Virus record (IMG/VR): IMGVR_UViG_2545824708_000017
Source of the DNA: a virus
Lineage: Duplodnaviria > Heunggongvirae > Uroviricota > Caudoviricetes
Strand: one strand, 5' to 3'
Length of the DNA: 24,201 nucleotides
Shown: positions 18,577 to 24,201 of the stretch, in pieces
Layout of the letters: each line of letters begins with the position of its first letter
How positions within the stretch are numbered: position 1 is the stretch's first letter
Translations under genes and position numbers: made by a program
Notes under the pieces: model-generated
Told to the model about the DNA's origin: nothing
Database searches by the model: none
The model's input: the letters and a program-made list of their open reading frames with translations, nothing else

Positions 18577-18779
18577 AACCTCACTCCCAGCGGACGACGG
18601 CGACGTCGGGTTGTCCCCAGTACCGACTCCGCATCATTGATCGCCCGGTTAAGCTCATCCAGAGAAGCCGCCGTATATTCAATTCTGCGACCATCTTTCT
18701 GGACAGACACCACCCGTTTACCGGTTAATAAATCAAGGCGCGCCTGACGTAGCGCCTGTAGTTCAGCGACTGTAACCAT
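18573..18779 (-). CDS. W: Head-tail connector / head completion protein W
   Basis: 68-aa ORF; LLTGKRVVSVQKDGRRIEYTA...RRRRRP matches lambda gpW (68 aa). Confidence 0.9.
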   Translation of the reverse strand: MVTVAELQALRQARLDLLTGKRVVSVQKDGRRIEYTAASLDELNRAINDAESVLGTTRRRRRPLGVRL

Positions 18780-20691
18780 TCACTCCTCCGGACAGCTTCG
18801 CTGCCAGTTCTTTCAGGGTTGGCCGGGTCGTCTCTTCTTCCCGGGATTTTGCCAGTACAGCCAGATCAAGCTGCCAGCGTTGCACGGACACACGTAATGC
18901 CGCGTAGGCATACACCAGGCAGTCCAGCGCTTCGTTACGCCGCTTTTTGTTATCCCACAGCAGACGCATCTTTCCTTTTTCCCACTTCTCCACAAGCTCT
19001 TCCGCGACCAGTTGCTGCGCCTCTGTCTGCGAAAAAATCTCCGGATCATCAGGAAAACGGATGGCATACGACGTGGCTTCATCCGCAGGAGGGGGATCGG
19101 CTTTCATACGGGCATAGAGAATTTCTTTTGCGGTGTCCGTCCCCACTTCACACAGATACACGCCCCGCTGATTGCGGGTTTTCGGCATGGTGATCACCGG
19201 CTTGCCATAGACAGATGCGCCTTTTACCGGCAGCACCCGGAAAACACCGTGTTTTTTTGACCTCTGATAGACAATTTCACCATCGATCCCCCCGGTGTCC
19301 CAGCAGACACGGGAAATGGTCATTTCGGTTCCGTCTGCATGGCAGTATTTTTTGTTGATCGCCGCATCCACACGTAACAGCGTCTCTTCCTCATCGGGAC
19401 GGCCCATAATGATGATTTTATCCACCAGAAAGGCTTCCTCTCCCTGTGCCCATCCCCAGACATACATCTCAAAACGGTTTCGCTGCGAGTCAATGCCCGC
19501 CGTCAGATAAACCACCCGGGCAGGCACCGCCGCCGTGTAACGCACCACCTTATCCATCAGTACCTGGTGATCGAGTTTTTCGCCCACGGCCTCTTCCCAG
19601 GTCTCGCCCAGCGTGGTGTTCACAAAGGTTTTCAGGCCGTTGGGATCTTTCAGTGCATCCAGCCAGTCATAGACTATCTGTATCCAGGTGGTGAACGGAC
19701 TGTACGCCGTCCAGATATGGAACGTGATGGAGCGCGGCGGCGGAATTTCATCCCCCCGGGCGCTGAAAAACATCAGGCCGTCACGGGTCCACATACCCGT
19801 GTTTTCACAGATCCAGCGCCCGTTACTCTGGTCAAGCTCAGACTGATGGATCACGCAGCCATGATGTTCACAGAGGTAGAAAACGCTTTCGGGGCTGTCC
19901 TTCTCCCATTTAAGGCCAAAAGGCGTGGATTCATCGCCAAATTTCAGATACTGCGCCTCCCCACAGTGCGGGCAGGGCACATAGAAACGCATGAAATGCG
20001 CCGACTCGTTGGCCGCTTTTTCGATCTGGCAGGTACCTTTGATTTTAGGCGTCGAGCCGCGAATGGATTTTGGCCATACAGAGCCCTCAATACGCTTATC
20101 CCCCAGCAGGGTTGGCGAGCCCTCTTTTTCGACATCCGGCTCGAACGAGGAAAGTTCGTCATAGCAGACCACGTCCACGGATTTTTCACGGTAGTTTTTG
20201 GCGGCAGCGCCGCCCAGGCACCAGAAACCGACGCCCGATGAAAAGCGTTTCAGCGTGAGAGTATTGTCACGATGTTTACGACCCAGCCATGGGGAAAGGT
20301 CTTTCAGGCATGGCACGTTCCGAATCGTCGCCTCCACGTGAGACTTCATAAAATCTTCAGCGGCAGAATCCGTGGGCTGAAAAAGCAGACTGTTTCGGGA
20401 TTTATGCTCAATAAAATACCCGACCACCCCCAGCAACATCTTTGTATAGCCAACACGGGCAGATTTAATCAGGTTAACCGTGCGAACCTGGTCGTTACCC
20501 ATACAGTTCATAATGGCGATCTGGAATGGCAGCGTTTTCCATTCGCCCTCACCATATGAAGATTCTTTAGGCAGATAATAATTTTGATCAGCCCATTCAA
20601 CTGCCGTCATTGGTACAACCCTGACCAGAGGCTGCAGCGCAACCGAAACGGCAGCCATCATATTATTCAGTTGTTGCTCTGATATATTCAT
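18763..20691 (-). CDS. A: Terminase large subunit A
   Basis: High similarity to lambda gpA throughout (TAVEWADQNYYLPKES, KSARVGYTKMLLGV, Walker-like region, FHIWTAYSPFTTW, CWDTGGID, RRNEALDC). Start placed at MNISEQQLNN (642 aa; lambda 641 aa, starts MNIS...) rather than the track start at 20748; overlaps the Nu1 3' end by about 29 nt, as in lambda. Confidence 0.93.
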   Translation of the reverse strand: MNISEQQLNNMMAAVSVALQPLVRVVPMTAVEWADQNYYLPKESSYGEGEWKTLPFQIAIMNCMGNDQVRTVNLIKSARVGYTKMLLGVVGYFIEHKSRNSLLFQPTDSAAEDFMKSHVEATIRNVPCLKDLSPWLGRKHRDNTLTLKRFSSGVGFWCLGGAAAKNYREKSVDVVCYDELSSFEPDVEKEGSPTLLGDKRIEGSVWPKSIRGSTPKIKGTCQIEKAANESAHFMRFYVPCPHCGEAQYLKFGDESTPFGLKWEKDSPESVFYLCEHHGCVIHQSELDQSNGRWICENTGMWTRDGLMFFSARGDEIPPPRSITFHIWTAYSPFTTWIQIVYDWLDALKDPNGLKTFVNTTLGETWEEAVGEKLDHQVLMDKVVRYTAAVPARVVYLTAGIDSQRNRFEMYVWGWAQGEEAFLVDKIIIMGRPDEEETLLRVDAAINKKYCHADGTEMTISRVCWDTGGIDGEIVYQRSKKHGVFRVLPVKGASVYGKPVITMPKTRNQRGVYLCEVGTDTAKEILYARMKADPPPADEATSYAIRFPDDPEIFSQTEAQQLVAEELVEKWEKGKMRLLWDNKKRRNEALDCLVYAYAALRVSVQRWQLDLAVLAKSREEETTRPTLKELAAKLSGGVNGYSR

Positions 20692-21172
20692 CGAGTAAAT
20701 CCGGTAATTTATCCCCTGCCCGCGCACACTGATTTGCCCCCTTAGCAATAAGGGTTTTCAGATGGTCAAGATGGCGCGGTGTTAAATCAGGAAACTGTCG
20801 CTGCATGGATAAAGGGATGGAATCAAGCGTACTGGATAACGCCATTGCCAGCTTACTGAGGGCAAAAATACAGAACCCGGTGTCAATAAGTTTTCCTTTT
20901 GACACCTCATTTTTTAACTGCTGTGTAACAGCCTGTTCTGCTGTCAGTTCCCATCTGGCAATAAGCAATTTCTCCTCATAGTCGTCTTCGCTATCGCCAT
21001 CAGGCACATCGTTTTTACTTCTCCTCAGATACGATATGTAAAAATCGCGCCAGGCATCCAGATCCAGTTGCCCTCGCTTATTCGATATCGGGGCACCCGG
21101 CAATTTCTGCAATCTGCGAAGCTGGCGATCGGTCAGACTTAAATGCCTGGCAACTTCAGTCTGCGTAGCCAC
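20663..21172 (-). CDS. Nu1: Terminase small subunit Nu1
   Basis: 169-aa ORF from a GTG start; C-terminal half (DTGFCIFALSKLA...LSMQRQFPDL..RHLD.LK) matches lambda Nu1; N-terminal helix-turn-helix (TQTEVARHLSLTDRQLRRL) differs from lambda. First gene after cos. Confidence 0.8.
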   Translation of the reverse strand: MATQTEVARHLSLTDRQLRRLQKLPGAPISNKRGQLDLDAWRDFYISYLRRSKNDVPDGDSEDDYEEKLLIARWELTAEQAVTQQLKNEVSKGKLIDTGFCIFALSKLAMALSSTLDSIPLSMQRQFPDLTPRHLDHLKTLIAKGANQCARAGDKLPDLLDEYIRATTE

Positions 21173-21219
21173 TCCTCACCTCGCAAAAACTCTCACCTCA
21201 CAATCACAACAAAACCGGT

Positions 21220-21230
21220 CATGTCCGGTT
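21220..21230 (+). repeat. cosB-like R repeat 1 (catgtccggtt)
   Basis: Exact 11-mer catgtccggtt; one of three copies between Nu1 start and cosN. Confidence 0.5.
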
Positions 21231-21249
21231 TACATGTCTGTTTTTTGTT

Positions 21250-21260
21250 CATGTCCGGTT
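21250..21260 (+). repeat. cosB-like R repeat 2 (catgtccggtt)
   Basis: Exact direct repeat of the 11-mer, 30 bp from repeat 1. Confidence 0.5.
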
Positions 21261-21307
21261 CACAGAAGACCTGTTTTTATATTTTTCATATAGTTAACTT
21301 GAAGAGA

Positions 21308-21318
21308 AACCGGACATG
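21308..21318 (-). repeat. cosB-like R repeat 3 (inverted copy, aaccggacatg on plus strand)
   Basis: Exact reverse complement of the 11-mer, 38 bp from cosN; separated from repeat 2 by an AT-rich spacer. Confidence 0.5.
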
Positions 21319-21355
21319 GATCCCGGAAAATTTTCATAAATAGCGAAAACCCGCG

Positions 21356-21367
21356 AGGTCGCCGCCC
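21356..21367 (-). other. cosN: 12-nt cohesive-end sequence (GGGCGGCGACCT on minus strand)
   Basis: Minus strand 21367-21330 reads GGGCGGCGACCTCGCGGGTTTTCGCTATTTATGAAAATTTTCCGG, identical to the lambda left end as recalled; flanking cgacaggttacgg matches the lambda right end. Confidence 0.85.
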
Positions 21368-21404
21368 CGTAACCTGTCGGATCGCCGGAAAGGACCCACG
21401 AAAA

Positions 21405-21419
21405 TGATAATAATTATCA
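21405..21419. promoter_or_regulatory. Fur-box-like 7-1-7 palindrome TGATAAT-A-ATTATCA
   Basis: Perfect inverted repeat matching the Fur box core (tGATAATnATTATCa); 14 of 19 matches to the classical GATAATGATAATCATTATC. Lies about 40 bp outside cosN and about 155 bp upstream of the YlcI-like gene. Confidence 0.4.
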
Positions 21420-21574
21420 TCTACATGAGGTTTATCACGACATGTGTGTACGCCATCAAACCACGAGAAATAATCAATTATTACGCAGGTATCGTATTAA
21501 TTGATCTGCATCAAATTAGCGTAAAAGCAACTTCAGATAATACAAATCAGCAACACTGAATACGGGGCAACATT

Positions 21575-21799
21575 ATGTCATCAAAGAACAGAACCCGCAG
21601 AACAACAACCCGCAACATCCGATTTCCAAACCAGATAATTGAACAAATTAACATCGCTCTTGACCTGAAAGGTTCAGGTAATTTTTCAGCGTGGGTTATT
21701 GAAGCCTGCAGAAGAAGATTAATTAATGAAAAATATTCTCAATTTGTACCCAACAAAGACAAACACGACCAGAGCACCTGTTCAGACAGGTTTACTTAA
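21575..21799 (+). CDS. YlcI/YnfO-family small protein (DUF3950-like), prophage-encoded
   Basis: 74-aa ORF; N-terminus MSSKNRTRRTTTRNIRFPNQIIEQINIAL...GSGNFSAWVIEACRRRL closely matches E. coli prophage YlcI/YnfO as recalled; these lie next to cos/terminase in lambdoid prophages. Confidence 0.6.
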   Translation: MSSKNRTRRTTTRNIRFPNQIIEQINIALDLKGSGNFSAWVIEACRRRLINEKYSQFVPNKDKHDQSTCSDRFT

Positions 21800-21817
21800 A
21801 CGACTTATATATGACAC

Positions 21818-21848
21818 AAAAAGCGACCACTAAAGTCGCTTTTTCTTA
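21818..21848. terminator. Bidirectional rho-independent terminator between convergent genes
   Basis: aaaaagcgac(21818-21827)/gtcgcttttt(21835-21844) with 7-nt loop; A-run on one side and T-run on the other. Confidence 0.6.
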
Positions 21849-21880
21849 TGGTAACAGGCAATAACTCTCTCAGATATTTT

Positions 21881-22195
21881 TTAGCATTTTTTTGACCGCG
21901 CGTTTCCGGACGTATTCTGTTCTCCTGTCCCTTTATATCGTCGGAATACCCGCCGCTCTTCAAATCCCATTCCCAACTCAGAATGTAGTCTGTTGACCGC
22001 TTGTTTTATTTCGGTCAGGTTCACCGGTGAAACCGGAGTCCGGCGCGCCTTACGCAAACACTCTGCTCGTTTCTGTGCCGCCACTTTTCTTTTCTGGTCA
22101 TCACTTAGCTGTACCATCACTTTTGCCCATCGTTCAGCTGCTCTCCGGTACAGTCCTTTTTTCTCCAGACATTCTGCCACGTGATCATGTAGCAT
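21881..22195 (-). CDS. PerC-family transcriptional regulator homolog (Pch-like)
   Basis: 104-aa basic ORF with strong GGAGGT Shine-Dalgarno 5 nt upstream; N-terminal AECLEKKGLYRRAAERWAKVM resembles the conserved PerC/Pch N-terminal motif (recall only). Occupies the position where lambda carries bor. Confidence 0.5.
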   Translation of the reverse strand: MLHDHVAECLEKKGLYRRAAERWAKVMVQLSDDQKRKVAAQKRAECLRKARRTPVSPVNLTEIKQAVNRLHSELGMGFEERRVFRRYKGTGEQNTSGNARSKKC

Positions 22196-23462: not shown

Positions 23463-23957
23463 CTATCTGTCGATGTCCCAGCACGCCAGCGCGCTCTCCT
23501 GGTCACGCCGTGAGACCTGACCGTAGCAATTATTTGAACGGATACGGCAGTCTCTGCCACCGTCCTTAATCCACCAGCGAATCGCCTCACAGGCACCTTT
23601 TCGATCGCCTGCATTAATTCGTTTATAAAACGTCGACGGGAAGCACTTACCGGGGCCAATGTTGTACGGACAGAATGACGCGATCCCCGCTTTCTGGGGT
23701 TCGGTCAGCGGCACCCGGATGTTTTTCTCCACCCATGCCAGCGCCTTGTCACGTTCGATGGCATTAACCCGGTCGCATTTTTCCTTTGACAGCTTCATGC
23801 CAGGAATAACAGGCTTACCATCCACCAGAATGGCACCACGGCAGATGGTCCAGATCCCCGCACCATCACGGTATGCCGTGGTGTGGTTACCTTCCTTTTC
23901 ATCCAGAAACTGGTCGAGGATTTCAGGCGCAGAAGCACCTGCACCAATCAGCGCCAG
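23463..23957 (-). pseudogene. R: Phage endolysin R (lysozyme family), 5' end truncated by IS1 insertion
   Basis: Reading frame is open from the IS1 boundary (...LALIGAGASAPEILDQFLDEKEGNHTTAYRDGAGIWTICRG...) to the stop at 23463, with no start codon for the hydrophobic N-terminus; the in-frame stop just upstream is IS1's own. C-terminus CYGQVSRRDQESALACWDIDR resembles endolysins of 933W-like prophages. Confidence 0.75.
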
Positions 23958-24201
23958 GGTAATGACTCCAACTTACTGATAGTGTTTTATGTTCAGATAA
24001 TGCCCGATGACCTTGTCATGCAGCTCCGCCGATTTTGAGAACGACAGTGACTTCCGTCCCAGCCTTGCCAGATGTTGTCTCAGATTCAGATTATGTCGCT
24101 CAATGCGCTGAGTGTAACGCTTGCTGATAACGTGCAGCTTTCCCTTCAGGCATGATTCATACAGCGGCCAGCCATCCGTCATCCATACCACGACCTCAAA
24201 G
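23958..24201 (-). mobile_element. IS1 insertion sequence, one terminus plus insB 3' end (partial; continues past window end)
   Basis: ggtaatgactccaacttactgatagtgttttatgttcagataatgcccgatgac is the reverse complement of the IS1 terminal inverted repeat; the adjacent ORF encodes the InsB C-terminus. Confidence 0.9.
23973..24201 (-). CDS. insB: IS1 transposase InsB, C-terminal part (partial)
   Basis: [72 protein letters not shown] matches IS1 InsB C-terminus from memory. Confidence 0.9.

What the first reader, a model, noticed from the sequence alone, without database searches (positions are those of the whole stretch)
21217..21420. Lambda-identical cosN combined with non-lambda cosB repeats and a divergent Nu1 DNA-binding domain
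The 12-nt cohesive end and about 40 bp around it are lambda-like, but the region between cosN and Nu1 lacks lambda's R-site sequence. It instead carries three exact copies of catgtccggtt (two direct at 21220 and 21250, one inverted at 21308) around an AT-rich spacer, which mimics the R3-I1-R2-R1 layout. The Nu1 N-terminal helix-turn-helix is correspondingly different from lambda's while its C-terminal half is lambda-like. This suggests a distinct packaging specificity, as in the lambda versus phage 21 precedent.
Basis: partly seen in the sequence, partly recalled or inferred. Interest (0 to 1): 0.55.

Follow-up and report, generated by a model that had tools for sequence, protein, structure and literature searches.

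The report
Prophage cos site with distinct specificity
This is the DNA-packaging start site (cos) of a lambda-like E. coli prophage whose cutting site is lambda's, but whose recognition boxes and the matching DNA-binding head of the small terminase belong to a different, widespread and apparently undescribed specificity class.

Summary
cosN (GGGCGGCGACCT) lies at 21367-21356 on the minus strand. Counting from the nick, bp 1-45 are identical to lambda and bp 46-195 are unrelated. CATGTCCGGTT occurs three times exactly (0.05 expected), at bp 50-60, 108-118 (inverted) and 138-148. A fourth copy with one mismatch forms a palindrome.

Nu1 matches lambda and phage 21 only from about residue 64-73 onward. 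Its N-terminus is still predicted to be a MerR-like winged helix-turn-helix, like the lambda TerS DNA-binding domain.

In prophages from six enterobacterial genera with this 'MATQxEVAxHL' head, a TCCGGTT-core box sits at bp 50-51. An inverted copy lies exactly 54 bp away, across an IHF-like site, and the flanks diverge. Distant relatives in Aeromonas and Pseudomonas phages keep the box. Nu1 homologues with other heads lack it.

Helix residue 20 covaries with box position 4 (Arg with G, Asp/Asn/Thr/Ser/Lys with T). Two prospective checks passed.

The same Nu1 and cos occur in O157 Sakai Sp4/Sp14 and about a fifth of complete E. coli genomes. I rate it a new member of a known kind, of moderate interest.

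The parts
21391..21397 (-). cosQ (GGGTCCT), 30 bp upstream of the left cohesive end
   Evidence: Same sequence and same -30 position as in lambda, phage 21 and every related cos examined.
21356..21367 (-). cosN: 12-nt cohesive-end sequence GGGCGGCGACCT, identical to lambda and phage 21
   Evidence: Single exact match in the window. bp 1-45 are 45/45 identical to lambda.
21324..21338 (-). I2-like segment TATGAAAATTTTCCG (bp 30-44), identical to lambda
   Evidence: Lies within the 45-bp lambda-identical run. The same positions are annotated as the I2 IHF site in phage 21 record M81255 and labelled IHF in Sakai Fig S8.
21308..21318 (-). R3-equivalent box CATGTCCGGTT, bp 50-60 from the nick
   Evidence: Exact copy. 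It occupies the position of lambda and phage 21 R3, bp 50-65. It is invariant in 22 distinct close relatives. Its TCCGGTT core lies 82-84 bp from cosQ in 12 diverse cos sites.
21284..21296 (-). I1-equivalent IHF-like site TAACTATATGAAA (bp 72-84) in the AT-rich spacer
   Evidence: Matches YAANNNNTTGATW with 2 mismatches. Relatives carry 0-2-mismatch matches at bp 72-73, and lambda and phage 21 at bp 74. Binding was not tested.
21250..21260 (+). R2-equivalent box, inverted relative to R3, bp 108-118
   Evidence: Exact copy. The R3-core to R2-core spacing is exactly 54 bp in all 12 diverse relatives, although the spacer sequence diverges.
21220..21230 (+). Third box (R1-equivalent by position, but in R2 orientation), bp 138-148
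   Evidence: Exact copy. It is present in E. coli and Enterobacter relatives, displaced in Klebsiella, and absent in Salmonella and Citrobacter. One natural variant has lost 30 bp between R2 and this box.
21213..21223 (-). Fourth, overlapping box CATGACCGGTT (one mismatch) in R3 orientation, bp 145-155; forms a palindrome with the third box
   Evidence: It is conserved in PhiR12 phages.
21008..21172 (-). Nu1/TerS N-terminal DNA-binding domain (about residues 1-55), 'MATQ' type; predicted recognition helix residues 15-22 (DRQLRRLQ)
20663..21007 (-). Nu1/TerS core and C-terminal TerL-binding part, lambda-like
   Evidence: Pfam Phage_Nu1 scores 67.9 bits over residues 49-150. 46% identity to lambda Nu1 over residues 73-164.
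18763..20691 (-). TerL (gpA homologue, 642 aa counted from the ATG at 20691), overlapping the end of Nu1 by 29 nt
   Evidence: 66% identity to lambda gpA over 639 aa. Pfam GpA_ATPase and GpA_nuclease match. RefSeq annotates the same coordinates in strain RM14723.

Best explanation
The region is a complete lambda-type cos site (cosQ, cosN, cosB) of a lambdoid prophage. It is of the same type as O157 Sakai Sp4/Sp14 and the viable PhiR12 phages.

Proposed mechanism:
1. The CATGTCCGGTT boxes are the R sequences of its cosB.
2. The winged helix-turn-helix at the N-terminus of this Nu1/TerS binds the box at bp 50-60 (R3) and the inverted box 54 bp away (R2).
3. The two boxes are brought together by an IHF-induced bend at the AT-rich site between them.
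4. The lambda-like C-terminal part of TerS holds TerL (66% identical to gpA) in register to nick the lambda-identical cosN.
5. The third and fourth boxes form an accessory, evolutionarily labile R1 region.

Because both the boxes and the recognition helix differ from those of lambda, phage 21 and N15, this terminase should select its own DNA and discriminate against lambda-type cos, and lambda terminase should do the reverse.

The family has at least two sub-specificities. Arg at helix residue 20 goes with G at box position 4 (..G-TCCGGTT, as in this window). Asp, Asn, Thr, Ser or Lys at residue 20 goes with T (..T-TCCGGTT).

Shown here: the anatomy, the conservation, the covariation and the predicted fold. 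Inferred: binding, IHF bending and the specificity phenotype.
For: 1. Three exact 11-mers against 0.05 expected.

2. They sit at the R3 and R2 positions of lambda and phage 21 (bp 50-60 and 108-118, against 50-65 and 107-122).

3. Among 22 distinct close relatives, R3 and cosN are invariant. The R2-R1 spacer varies at 0.21 differences per site per sequence.

4. Across Klebsiella, Salmonella, Citrobacter, Enterobacter and other E. coli prophages (Nu1 60-80% identical), the TCCGGTT core is 82-84 bp from cosQ. The inverted core is exactly 54 bp further in 12 of 12 sites. The spacer sequence, cosN itself and the distance to the start codon (94-142 bp) all vary.

5. Distant members (33-45% identical) keep TTCCGGTT(CCGGTT) just upstream of the gene. 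Aeromonas phage phiARM81ld's record starts GGGCG..., and its box is at bp 52-62, which is a simple, N15-like cosB.

6. None of about 25 distinct Nu1 homologues with other N-termini carries the core. L102 and L103 instead carry GGTGGTTGTTGT boxes at the same positions.

7. Members whose helix lacks the (D/E)R..R pattern lack the box.

8. The residue 20 / box position 4 covariation has no exception in any R3 or R2 box, includes an independent distant lineage (L113), and was confirmed prospectively on two loci fetched afterwards.

9. The N-terminal domain is predicted to be a MerR-like winged helix-turn-helix, closest to RppC and to TerS DNA-binding domains.

10. The system works in vivo. PhiR12 phages with 99.4%-identical Nu1 and the same boxes are deposited as phages propagated on K-12 or E. 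coli C. Sakai Sp4 has this cos but a disrupted nu1, and its DNA is packaged. The authors attribute this to the terminase of Sp14, whose cos is nearly identical (PMC2669165).
Against: - No binding or packaging experiment exists for this box.
- The sequences compared are related, so the counts are not independent events. I can document at least two independent origins of the Arg-G pairing, not many.
- The third exact box is in R2 orientation, unlike lambda R1.
- The IHF-like site in this window has 2 mismatches to the consensus.
- The box core lies 3 bp closer to cosN than the homologous part of the lambda and phage 21 R3, although lambda tolerates even 3-bp spacing changes poorly (PMC9026076).
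- Lambda genetics assigns bp 56 (box position 4) to residue 24, not to the residue that aligns with residue 20 here. The proposed contact is therefore only a correlation.
Confidence: 0.85

Rival explanations
1. The boxes are TerS sites, but the specificity is not really distinct. This terminase cross-recognises phage 21-type (or lambda-type) cosB, or the reverse, in the way that N15 terminase packages lambda DNA at about half efficiency.
For: The 5' half of the box (CATGTC) is identical to that of phage 21 R1 and R2. hhalign places the helix in the same register as lambda and phage 21, and window Arg20 aligns with phage 21 Arg21. An asymmetric shared specificity has a precedent in N15 and lambda (PMC4669245).
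Against: The 3' half differs (CCGGTT against GGnCC). The box lies 3 bp closer to cosN. The R3-R2 spacing is 54 bp against 59-61 bp. The DNA-binding domains share no BLASTP-detectable similarity. Lambda and phage 21, which are far more alike, already discriminate more than 1000-fold.
Confidence: 0.12
2. This particular copy is an inert relic. The prophage is defective, so the cos site and terminase no longer act, although the sequence class is as described.
For: An IS1 transposase fragment abuts an N-terminally truncated lysozyme ORF about 2.6 kb away.
Against: Nu1, TerL and all cos subsites are intact. The cosN-to-Nu1 stretch is identical to the commonest of 22 IMG/VR variants, and the 301-bp cos query is 100% identical to one complete genome, RM14723. 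A cos site acts in cis and can be used by a terminase supplied in trans, as reported for Sakai Sp4.
Confidence: 0.1
3. The repeats serve something other than terminase. They could be operators for a transcription factor, or an RNA hairpin or terminator ahead of the head operon.
For: The terminator scan flags the R1 palindrome and the R3 region on the Nu1 strand.
Against: The hairpin is unexceptional (-11.5 kcal/mol, z -1.74, 9 of 200 shuffles fold as well). The palindrome is absent in most relatives, whereas the boxes are kept. There is no promoter-like site and no Rfam match. Box presence tracks the TerS DNA-binding-domain type and a residue in its helix.
Confidence: 0.03

Closest known systems
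Phage lambda cos (cosQ-cosN-cosB with R3-I1-R2-R1) and gpNu1/gpA terminase
   Same: cosQ is identical, cosN is identical and bp 1-45 are identical. An R3-position box, an IHF-like site and an inverted R2-position box are present. Nu1 starts at bp 196, against 191 in lambda. TerS has the same core and C-terminal part, and TerL is 66% identical. The DNA-binding domain has the same predicted fold.
   Different: The box is CATGTCCGGTT, against lambda's CGTTTCC(G/T)TTCT. The aligned part lies 3 bp closer to cosN. R3-R2 spacing is 54 bp against 61 bp. The third box is in R2 orientation and has an overlapping palindromic partner. The DNA-binding domain has no BLASTP or Pfam-level similarity and a shorter wing.
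Phage 21 cosB and gp1 (the classic alternative specificity)
   Same: cosN and cosQ are identical to lambda's while the R boxes differ. The box shares the 5' half CATGTC, with G at position 4. Arg aligns at the helix position that is Asn in lambda.
   Different: Phage 21 boxes continue GGnCC rather than CGGTT. Phage 21 gp1 is clearly lambda-like through its whole length, whereas this Nu1 aligns to it only over residues 64-166.
N15 (simple cosB with a single R3) and Monarch-type prophages (complex cosB, same helix)
   Same: One DNA-binding-domain and box family exists in both a complex form (enterobacterial prophages, including this window) and a simple form (Aeromonas phiARM81ld, Pseudomonas LPPA33 and metagenomic relatives). 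A natural 30-bp deletion between repeated boxes mirrors the unequal-crossover origin proposed for N15.
   Different: The box sequence and helix differ. The window itself has the complex form.
O157:H7 Sakai prophages Sp4 and Sp14 (Asadulghani et al. 2009, PMC2669165, Fig S8)
   Same: The Nu1 protein in their figure is essentially the same (MATQTEVARHLSLTDRQLRRLQK...), allowing for machine-read errors in the held text. The cos sequence is the same through ...TTTTCCGGGATCCATGT. A PerC/Pch-type gene also lies next to cos in the window.
   Different: That paper marked only cosQ, cosN and an IHF site and stopped at the first bases of R3. It did not describe the cosB boxes or a specificity class.
PICI cos sites and Rpp proteins (Fillol-Salom et al. 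2019; Murialdo & Feiss 2022)
   Different: Here the new DNA-binding domain is part of TerS itself, in a complete phage with its own TerL. There is no hijacking partner.

Membership tests
lambda-like cos site | 12-nt cohesive-end sequence (cosN) with flanking symmetry | tested here: met
   GGGCGGCGACCT occurs once, at 21356-21367 (-). bp 1-45 are identical to lambda.
lambda-like cos site | cosQ GGGTCCT about 30 bp upstream of the nick | tested here: met
   At -30 in the window, lambda, phage 21 and all relatives examined.
lambda-like cos site | TerS-binding R3 box about 50-65 bp from the nick | tested here: met
   The box is at bp 50-60. The cosQ-to-core distance is 82-84 bp in 12 diverse relatives. 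Binding itself was not tested.
lambda-like cos site | IHF site I1 between R3 and R2 | tested here: inconclusive
   TAACTATATGAAA at bp 72-84 has 2 mismatches to YAANNNNTTGATW. Relatives have 0-2 mismatches at the same place, and lambda's own site has 2. This is a consensus match only.
lambda-like cos site | R2 inverted relative to R3, at a fixed distance | tested here: met
   An inverted exact copy lies at bp 108-118. The core-to-core spacing is invariant at 54 bp in 12 of 12 relatives.
lambda-like cos site | R1 in the same orientation as R3 | tested here: inconclusive
   The exact third copy (bp 138-148) is in R2 orientation. Only the overlapping one-mismatch copy (bp 145-155) is in R3 orientation. 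The third box is absent or differently placed in several genera.
lambda-like cos site | Cleavage producing 12-nt 5' cohesive ends in virion DNA | not testable with these tools
   This needs end-sequencing of virion DNA from PhiR12 or Sp14-type phages.
lambda-type small terminase (gpNu1, Pfam PF07471) | Profile match above the curated threshold | tested here: met
   67.9 bits against a cut-off of 30, but only residues 49-150 match profile positions 62-163.
lambda-type small terminase (gpNu1, Pfam PF07471) | N-terminal MerR-like winged helix-turn-helix DNA-binding domain | tested here: met
lambda-type small terminase (gpNu1, Pfam PF07471) | Gene directly upstream of, and overlapping, a gpA-type TerL gene | tested here: met
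   29-nt overlap. TerL is 66% identical to gpA.
lambda packaging specificity | R boxes CGTTTCC(G/T)TTCT and recognition helix RTIQNWQE | tested here: not met
   No such boxes are present. The helix is DRQLRRLQK, and there is no BLASTP alignment before residue 73.
phage 21 packaging specificity | R boxes C(A/G)TGTCGGnCC and gp1 helix RTIERWQS | tested here: not met
   Only CATGTC is shared. There is no BLASTP alignment before residue 64.
N15-type simple cosB | Single R3, with no IHF site, R2 or R1 | tested here: not met
   The window has three or four boxes plus an IHF-like site. Distant relatives of the same DNA-binding-domain family do have the simple form.

The most novel reading that the evidence does not exclude
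The 'MATQ' TerS heads and their TCCGGTT boxes form a large, previously uncharted packaging-specificity family running from Enterobacteriaceae to Aeromonas, Pseudomonas and an Azospirillum MAG. Within it, one helix residue sets a sub-specificity: Arg20 reads G at box position 4, and Asp/Asn/Thr/Ser/Lys goes with T. The same T/G difference at the aligned base, together with Asn against Arg at the aligned residue, also separates lambda from phage 21. That would point to one shared and predictable recognition rule. If so, the packaging compatibility of prophages, for example within the O157 prophage pool, could be read from sequence and re-engineered by single substitutions.
Probability: 0.35. Interest if true: 0.55.

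Novelty: new member of a known kind. Interest (0 to 1): 0.4.

Why it matters
Cos-site specificity decides which DNA a terminase will package when several lambdoid prophages, satellites or infecting phages share a cell. That in turn decides which virulence-bearing defective prophages can be mobilised in trans.

Up to 2015 only three specificities had been documented among lambda-like phages: lambda, phage 21 and N15. The specialists noted that diversity had barely been sampled (PMC4669245).

This class is common. It occurs in 1139 of 5426 complete E. coli genomes, including O157:H7. It is carried by Sakai Sp4/Sp14-type prophages that hold PerC/Pch-type regulators next to cos.

The natural covariation gives concrete single-residue and single-base predictions, which make the recognition rule directly testable.

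Tried and rejected
- The genome-contig scan with the Nu1 alignment returned only one distant locus, an Azospirillum MAG. The pattern was too narrow, so diversity had to come from the look-up of encoding contigs and IMG/VR.
- The first IMG/VR scan returned only 99%-identical loci. These were useful for micro-variation but not for diversity.
- A PDB sequence search with Nu1 found nothing meaningful.
- Pfam on the DNA-binding domain alone gave only a sub-threshold Sigma70_r3 hit (E 0.044).
- A literature search for the 11-mer returned unrelated primer sequences. A search for the PhiR12 phage names returned nothing relevant. The held library lacks the subscription papers of the Feiss laboratory (Sippy 2015 and Feiss 2015, both in Virology), so prior description there cannot be excluded.
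- HK225 and mEp237 matched the query beyond cosN at about 80% identity. They turned out to have lambda-type boxes and a lambda-type Nu1.
- The degenerate copy CATGTCTGTTT at 21233-21243 was rejected as a site because it is not conserved in PhiR12.
- The terminator or hairpin reading of the palindrome was rejected.
- There is no Rfam family anywhere in the window.

Full report
**What is there**

The window is part of a lambdoid E. coli prophage whose late genes run on the minus strand.
- TerL lies at 18763-20691. It is 642 aa and 66% identical to lambda gpA.
- It is preceded by Nu1/TerS at 20663-21172, which has a GTG start. RefSeq uses the same start in strain RM14723.
- About 195 bp upstream of Nu1 is the single copy of GGGCGGCGACCT, at 21367-21356 on the minus strand.

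I number from the left cohesive end (bp 1 = 21367) toward Nu1.
- bp 1-45 are 45/45 identical to lambda.
- cosQ GGGTCCT is at -30, as in lambda and phage 21.
- bp 46-195 are at random-level identity to lambda, 42/150.

CATGTCCGGTT occurs three times exactly in 24.2 kb, against 0.05 expected from shuffles.
- bp 50-60: window 21318-21308, forward in Nu1 orientation.
- bp 108-118: window 21260-21250, inverted.
- bp 138-148: window 21230-21220, inverted.
- A one-mismatch forward copy at bp 145-155 overlaps the third box and makes the palindrome AAACCGGaCATGaCCGGTTT.
- A two-mismatch copy at 21233-21243 is not conserved in relatives, and I do not count it as a site.

**Position relative to known cos sites**

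- Phage 21's own record annotates R3, I1, R2 and R1 at bp 50-65, 72-86, 107-122 and 150-165.
- Lambda R3 is bp 50-65, with the NMR-defined contacts at bp 55-63 (PMC9026076).
- The first two boxes here fall in the R3 and R2 positions. They have the R3-forward, R2-inverted arrangement.
- An IHF-consensus-like sequence, TAACTATATGAAA with 2 mismatches, lies at bp 72-84. This is where lambda and phage 21 have I1.
- The third exact box is in R2 orientation, unlike lambda R1. Only its overlapping partner is in R3 orientation.

**The protein**

- Pfam Phage_Nu1 matches only residues 49-150.
- BLASTP aligns lambda Nu1 only over residues 73-164 (46%) and phage 21 gp1 only over 64-166 (40%).
- tblastn against 50,697 phage records shows the same pattern for N15 and phi80.
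- The N-terminal 58 residues have no Pfam or PDB sequence match.
- An AlphaFold model of residues 1-58 has pLDDT 81.6. Its topology is strand, helix 4-10, helix 15-22, wing, helix 38-54.
- A domain-only profile comparison with the lambda/21 domain gives a weak but consistent signal (probability 66%, E 5.5e-5). Its register is window residue n = lambda residue n+1.

So the head has the same fold as gpNu1's and is probably a very distant homologue of it. It is a separate sequence family, which I call the 'MATQ' type after its invariant start.

**Comparative test: are the boxes kept where this head is kept?**

*Close relatives.* Seventy-seven IMG/VR loci with 99%-identical Nu1 give 22 distinct cosN-to-Nu1 sequences.
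- cosN and R3 never vary.
- R2 and R1 vary little.
- The R2-R1 spacer varies at 0.21 differences per site per sequence.
- One variant has lost exactly the 30 bp between R2 and R1, as expected from recombination between the repeats.

*PhiR12 phages.* These five deposited phages are the only ones with this Nu1 (99.4% identical). They keep all boxes while the spacers differ.

*Other genera.* I examined prophages whose Nu1 is 60-80% identical, from Klebsiella, Salmonella (two types), Citrobacter and Enterobacter, plus other E. coli and metagenomic contigs.
- All carry a TCCGGTT-core box 82-84 bp from cosQ.
- All carry an inverted copy exactly 54 bp further on, in 12 of 12 sites.
- The spacer sequence, the cohesive-end sequence itself and the distance to the start codon (94-142 bp) all vary.
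- The third box is present, moved, reoriented or absent.

*Distant members (33-45% identity).* These include Aeromonas phage phiARM81ld, Pseudomonas phage LPPA33, many metagenomic phages and an Azospirillum MAG.
- They have TTCCGGTT, often as the overlapping tandem TTCCGGTTCCGGTT, just upstream of the gene.
- In phiARM81ld the record starts GGGCG... and the box is at bp 52-62. This is a simple cosB like that of N15.

*Controls.*
- About 25 distinct Nu1 homologues share the C-terminal part but have other N-termini. None carries the core.
- Two of them (L102, L103) carry GGTGGTTGTTGT boxes at the same R3, R2 and R1 positions.
- MATQ-type members whose helix lacks the (D/E)R..R pattern also lack the box.
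- Lambda itself contains TTCCGGTT at bp 40-47, in the I2 region. That is out of register with R3 and is presumably coincidental.

**Covariation inside the family**

- Every member with Arg at helix residue 20 has G immediately 5' of TCCGGTT. These members are from E. coli, Salmonella L092, Citrobacter L096, Enterobacter L098 and the distant L113.
- Every member with Asp, Asn, Thr, Ser or Lys at residue 20 has T at that position.
- I then fetched two loci I had not yet seen and predicted their boxes from the protein. P0014 (Asn20) should have T and P0038 (Arg20) should have G. Both predictions were right, and both boxes sit at bp 50-60.
- By the hhalign register, residue 20 aligns with lambda Asn21 and phage 21 Arg21. 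The aligned base is T in lambda boxes (CGTTTCC) and G in phage 21 boxes (CATGTCGG).

This parallel is suggestive only. Published genetics links bp 56 to lambda residue 24. The sequences are also related by descent, so the counts overstate the number of independent events.

**Mechanism**

The best reading is the lambda paradigm with different letters.
1. A TerS dimer binds R3 and R2 across an IHF bend.
2. This positions a lambda-like TerL on a lambda-identical cosN.
3. The third and fourth boxes are accessory.

The invariant 54-bp spacing across diverged spacers fits a geometric constraint of this kind. That this packaging system works in vivo follows from two observations.
- The PhiR12 phages are viable.
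- In O157 Sakai, Sp4 has this cos but an IS-disrupted nu1, yet its DNA is packaged. The authors attributed this to the terminase of Sp14, which has a nearly identical cos (PMC2669165).

A distinct specificity is inferred, not measured.

**Rivals**

- Partial cross-recognition with phage 21, because of the shared CATGTC half-box.
- Inertness of this particular copy, because an IS1 fragment abuts a truncated lysozyme gene.
- A non-terminase role. This is unlikely: no promoter-like site is present, the palindrome hairpin is unexceptional (-11.5 kcal/mol, z -1.74), there is no Rfam match, and box presence tracks the TerS head.

**Novelty**

- The element itself is not new as sequence. It is the Sp4/Sp14 type, and at least 80% of the 301-bp cos query is found in 1139 of 5426 complete E. 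coli genomes.
- The 2009 Sakai supplement aligned its cosQ, cosN and Nu1 with lambda, but stopped at the first bases of R3 and named no cosB boxes.
- The packaging literature I could read lists lambda, phage 21 and N15 as the documented specificities, and mentions phi80 and Gifsy-1 as having three R sequences.
- I found no description of this box. Key subscription papers are not in the library.

I therefore rate it a new member of a known kind, a further cosB/TerS specificity class. It comes with a testable residue-base rule and is of moderate interest.

Noticed in passing
window 23463-24191: An IS1 transposase fragment (ORF 23973-24191, minus strand; Pfam DDE_Tnp_IS1 profile positions 61-131) lies next to a lysozyme ORF of only 120 aa that matches Phage_lysozyme from profile position 27. 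In strain RM14723 the corresponding lysozyme gene is 534 bp. The lysis cassette of this prophage copy may be disrupted.
   Followed up: partly
window 21575-22195: Two cargo genes lie between cos and the Rz gene: a YlcI/YnfO (DUF3950) protein on the plus strand (21575-21799) and a 104-aa PerC-family activator on the minus strand (21881-22195; 149 bits). From memory, this is the size of the Pch regulators of EHEC, which fits the Sakai Sp4/Sp14 relationship.
   Followed up: partly
window 21175-21203: A direct repeat CTCACCTCGCAA / CTCACCTCACAA, which reads GAGGTGAG twice in Nu1 orientation, lies just upstream of the GTG start. The proximal copy is the likely Shine-Dalgarno sequence. The whole bp 138-198 stretch is identical in PhiR12.
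   Followed up: no
window 21124-21136 and 21374-21386: A 13-nt inverted repeat, 85% complementary. One arm lies between cosQ and cosN (GGCGATCCGACAG, the conserved lambda cos sequence). The other lies inside Nu1 codons 13-17, which encode the start of the recognition helix. It recalls N15's remote rR2 site inside gene 1 but may be chance.
   Followed up: no
L102 and L103 (Klebsiella and Salmonella prophages), about 250 bp upstream of Nu1: A further Nu1 head type (MA(F/V)LLNKSDMASSIGISVQAF...) has its own boxes, GGTGGTTGTTGT, at R3 (forward), R2 (inverted) and R1 (forward) positions, with an IHF-like site at bp 74. Several cosB/TerS-head classes therefore share one cos scaffold.
   Followed up: partly
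L092, L094, L096, L176; HK225 (L002): The cohesive-end sequence itself varies among relatives (GGGCGACGCGCT, GGGCGGCAGCGT, GGGCGGCGTCCG, GGGCGGAAACCA), while cosQ, the spacing and the box positions are kept. HK225 and the Citrobacter prophage share GGGCGGCGTCCG although their Nu1 heads differ, so cosN and cosB assort independently.
   Followed up: partly
L084 (IMG/VR), bp 108-137 of its cos: A natural variant lacks exactly the 30 bp from R2 to R1, leaving a two-box cosB like that of the Salmonella and Citrobacter relatives. This is the kind of unequal crossover between R boxes that has been proposed for the origin of N15's simple cosB.
   Followed up: partly
lambda J02459 bp 40-47 (L005): Lambda's own cos contains TTCCGGTT, the T-type box core of this family. 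It lies in the I2 region, 14 bp nearer to cosN than the R3-position core, and is probably coincidental.
   Followed up: no
window 21397-21427: A near-palindrome, CACGAAAATGATAAT / ATTATCATCTACATG, centred on GATAATTATTATC, lies just upstream of cosQ. Lambda has a similar GATGATAATCATTATCAC at the same place.
   Followed up: no
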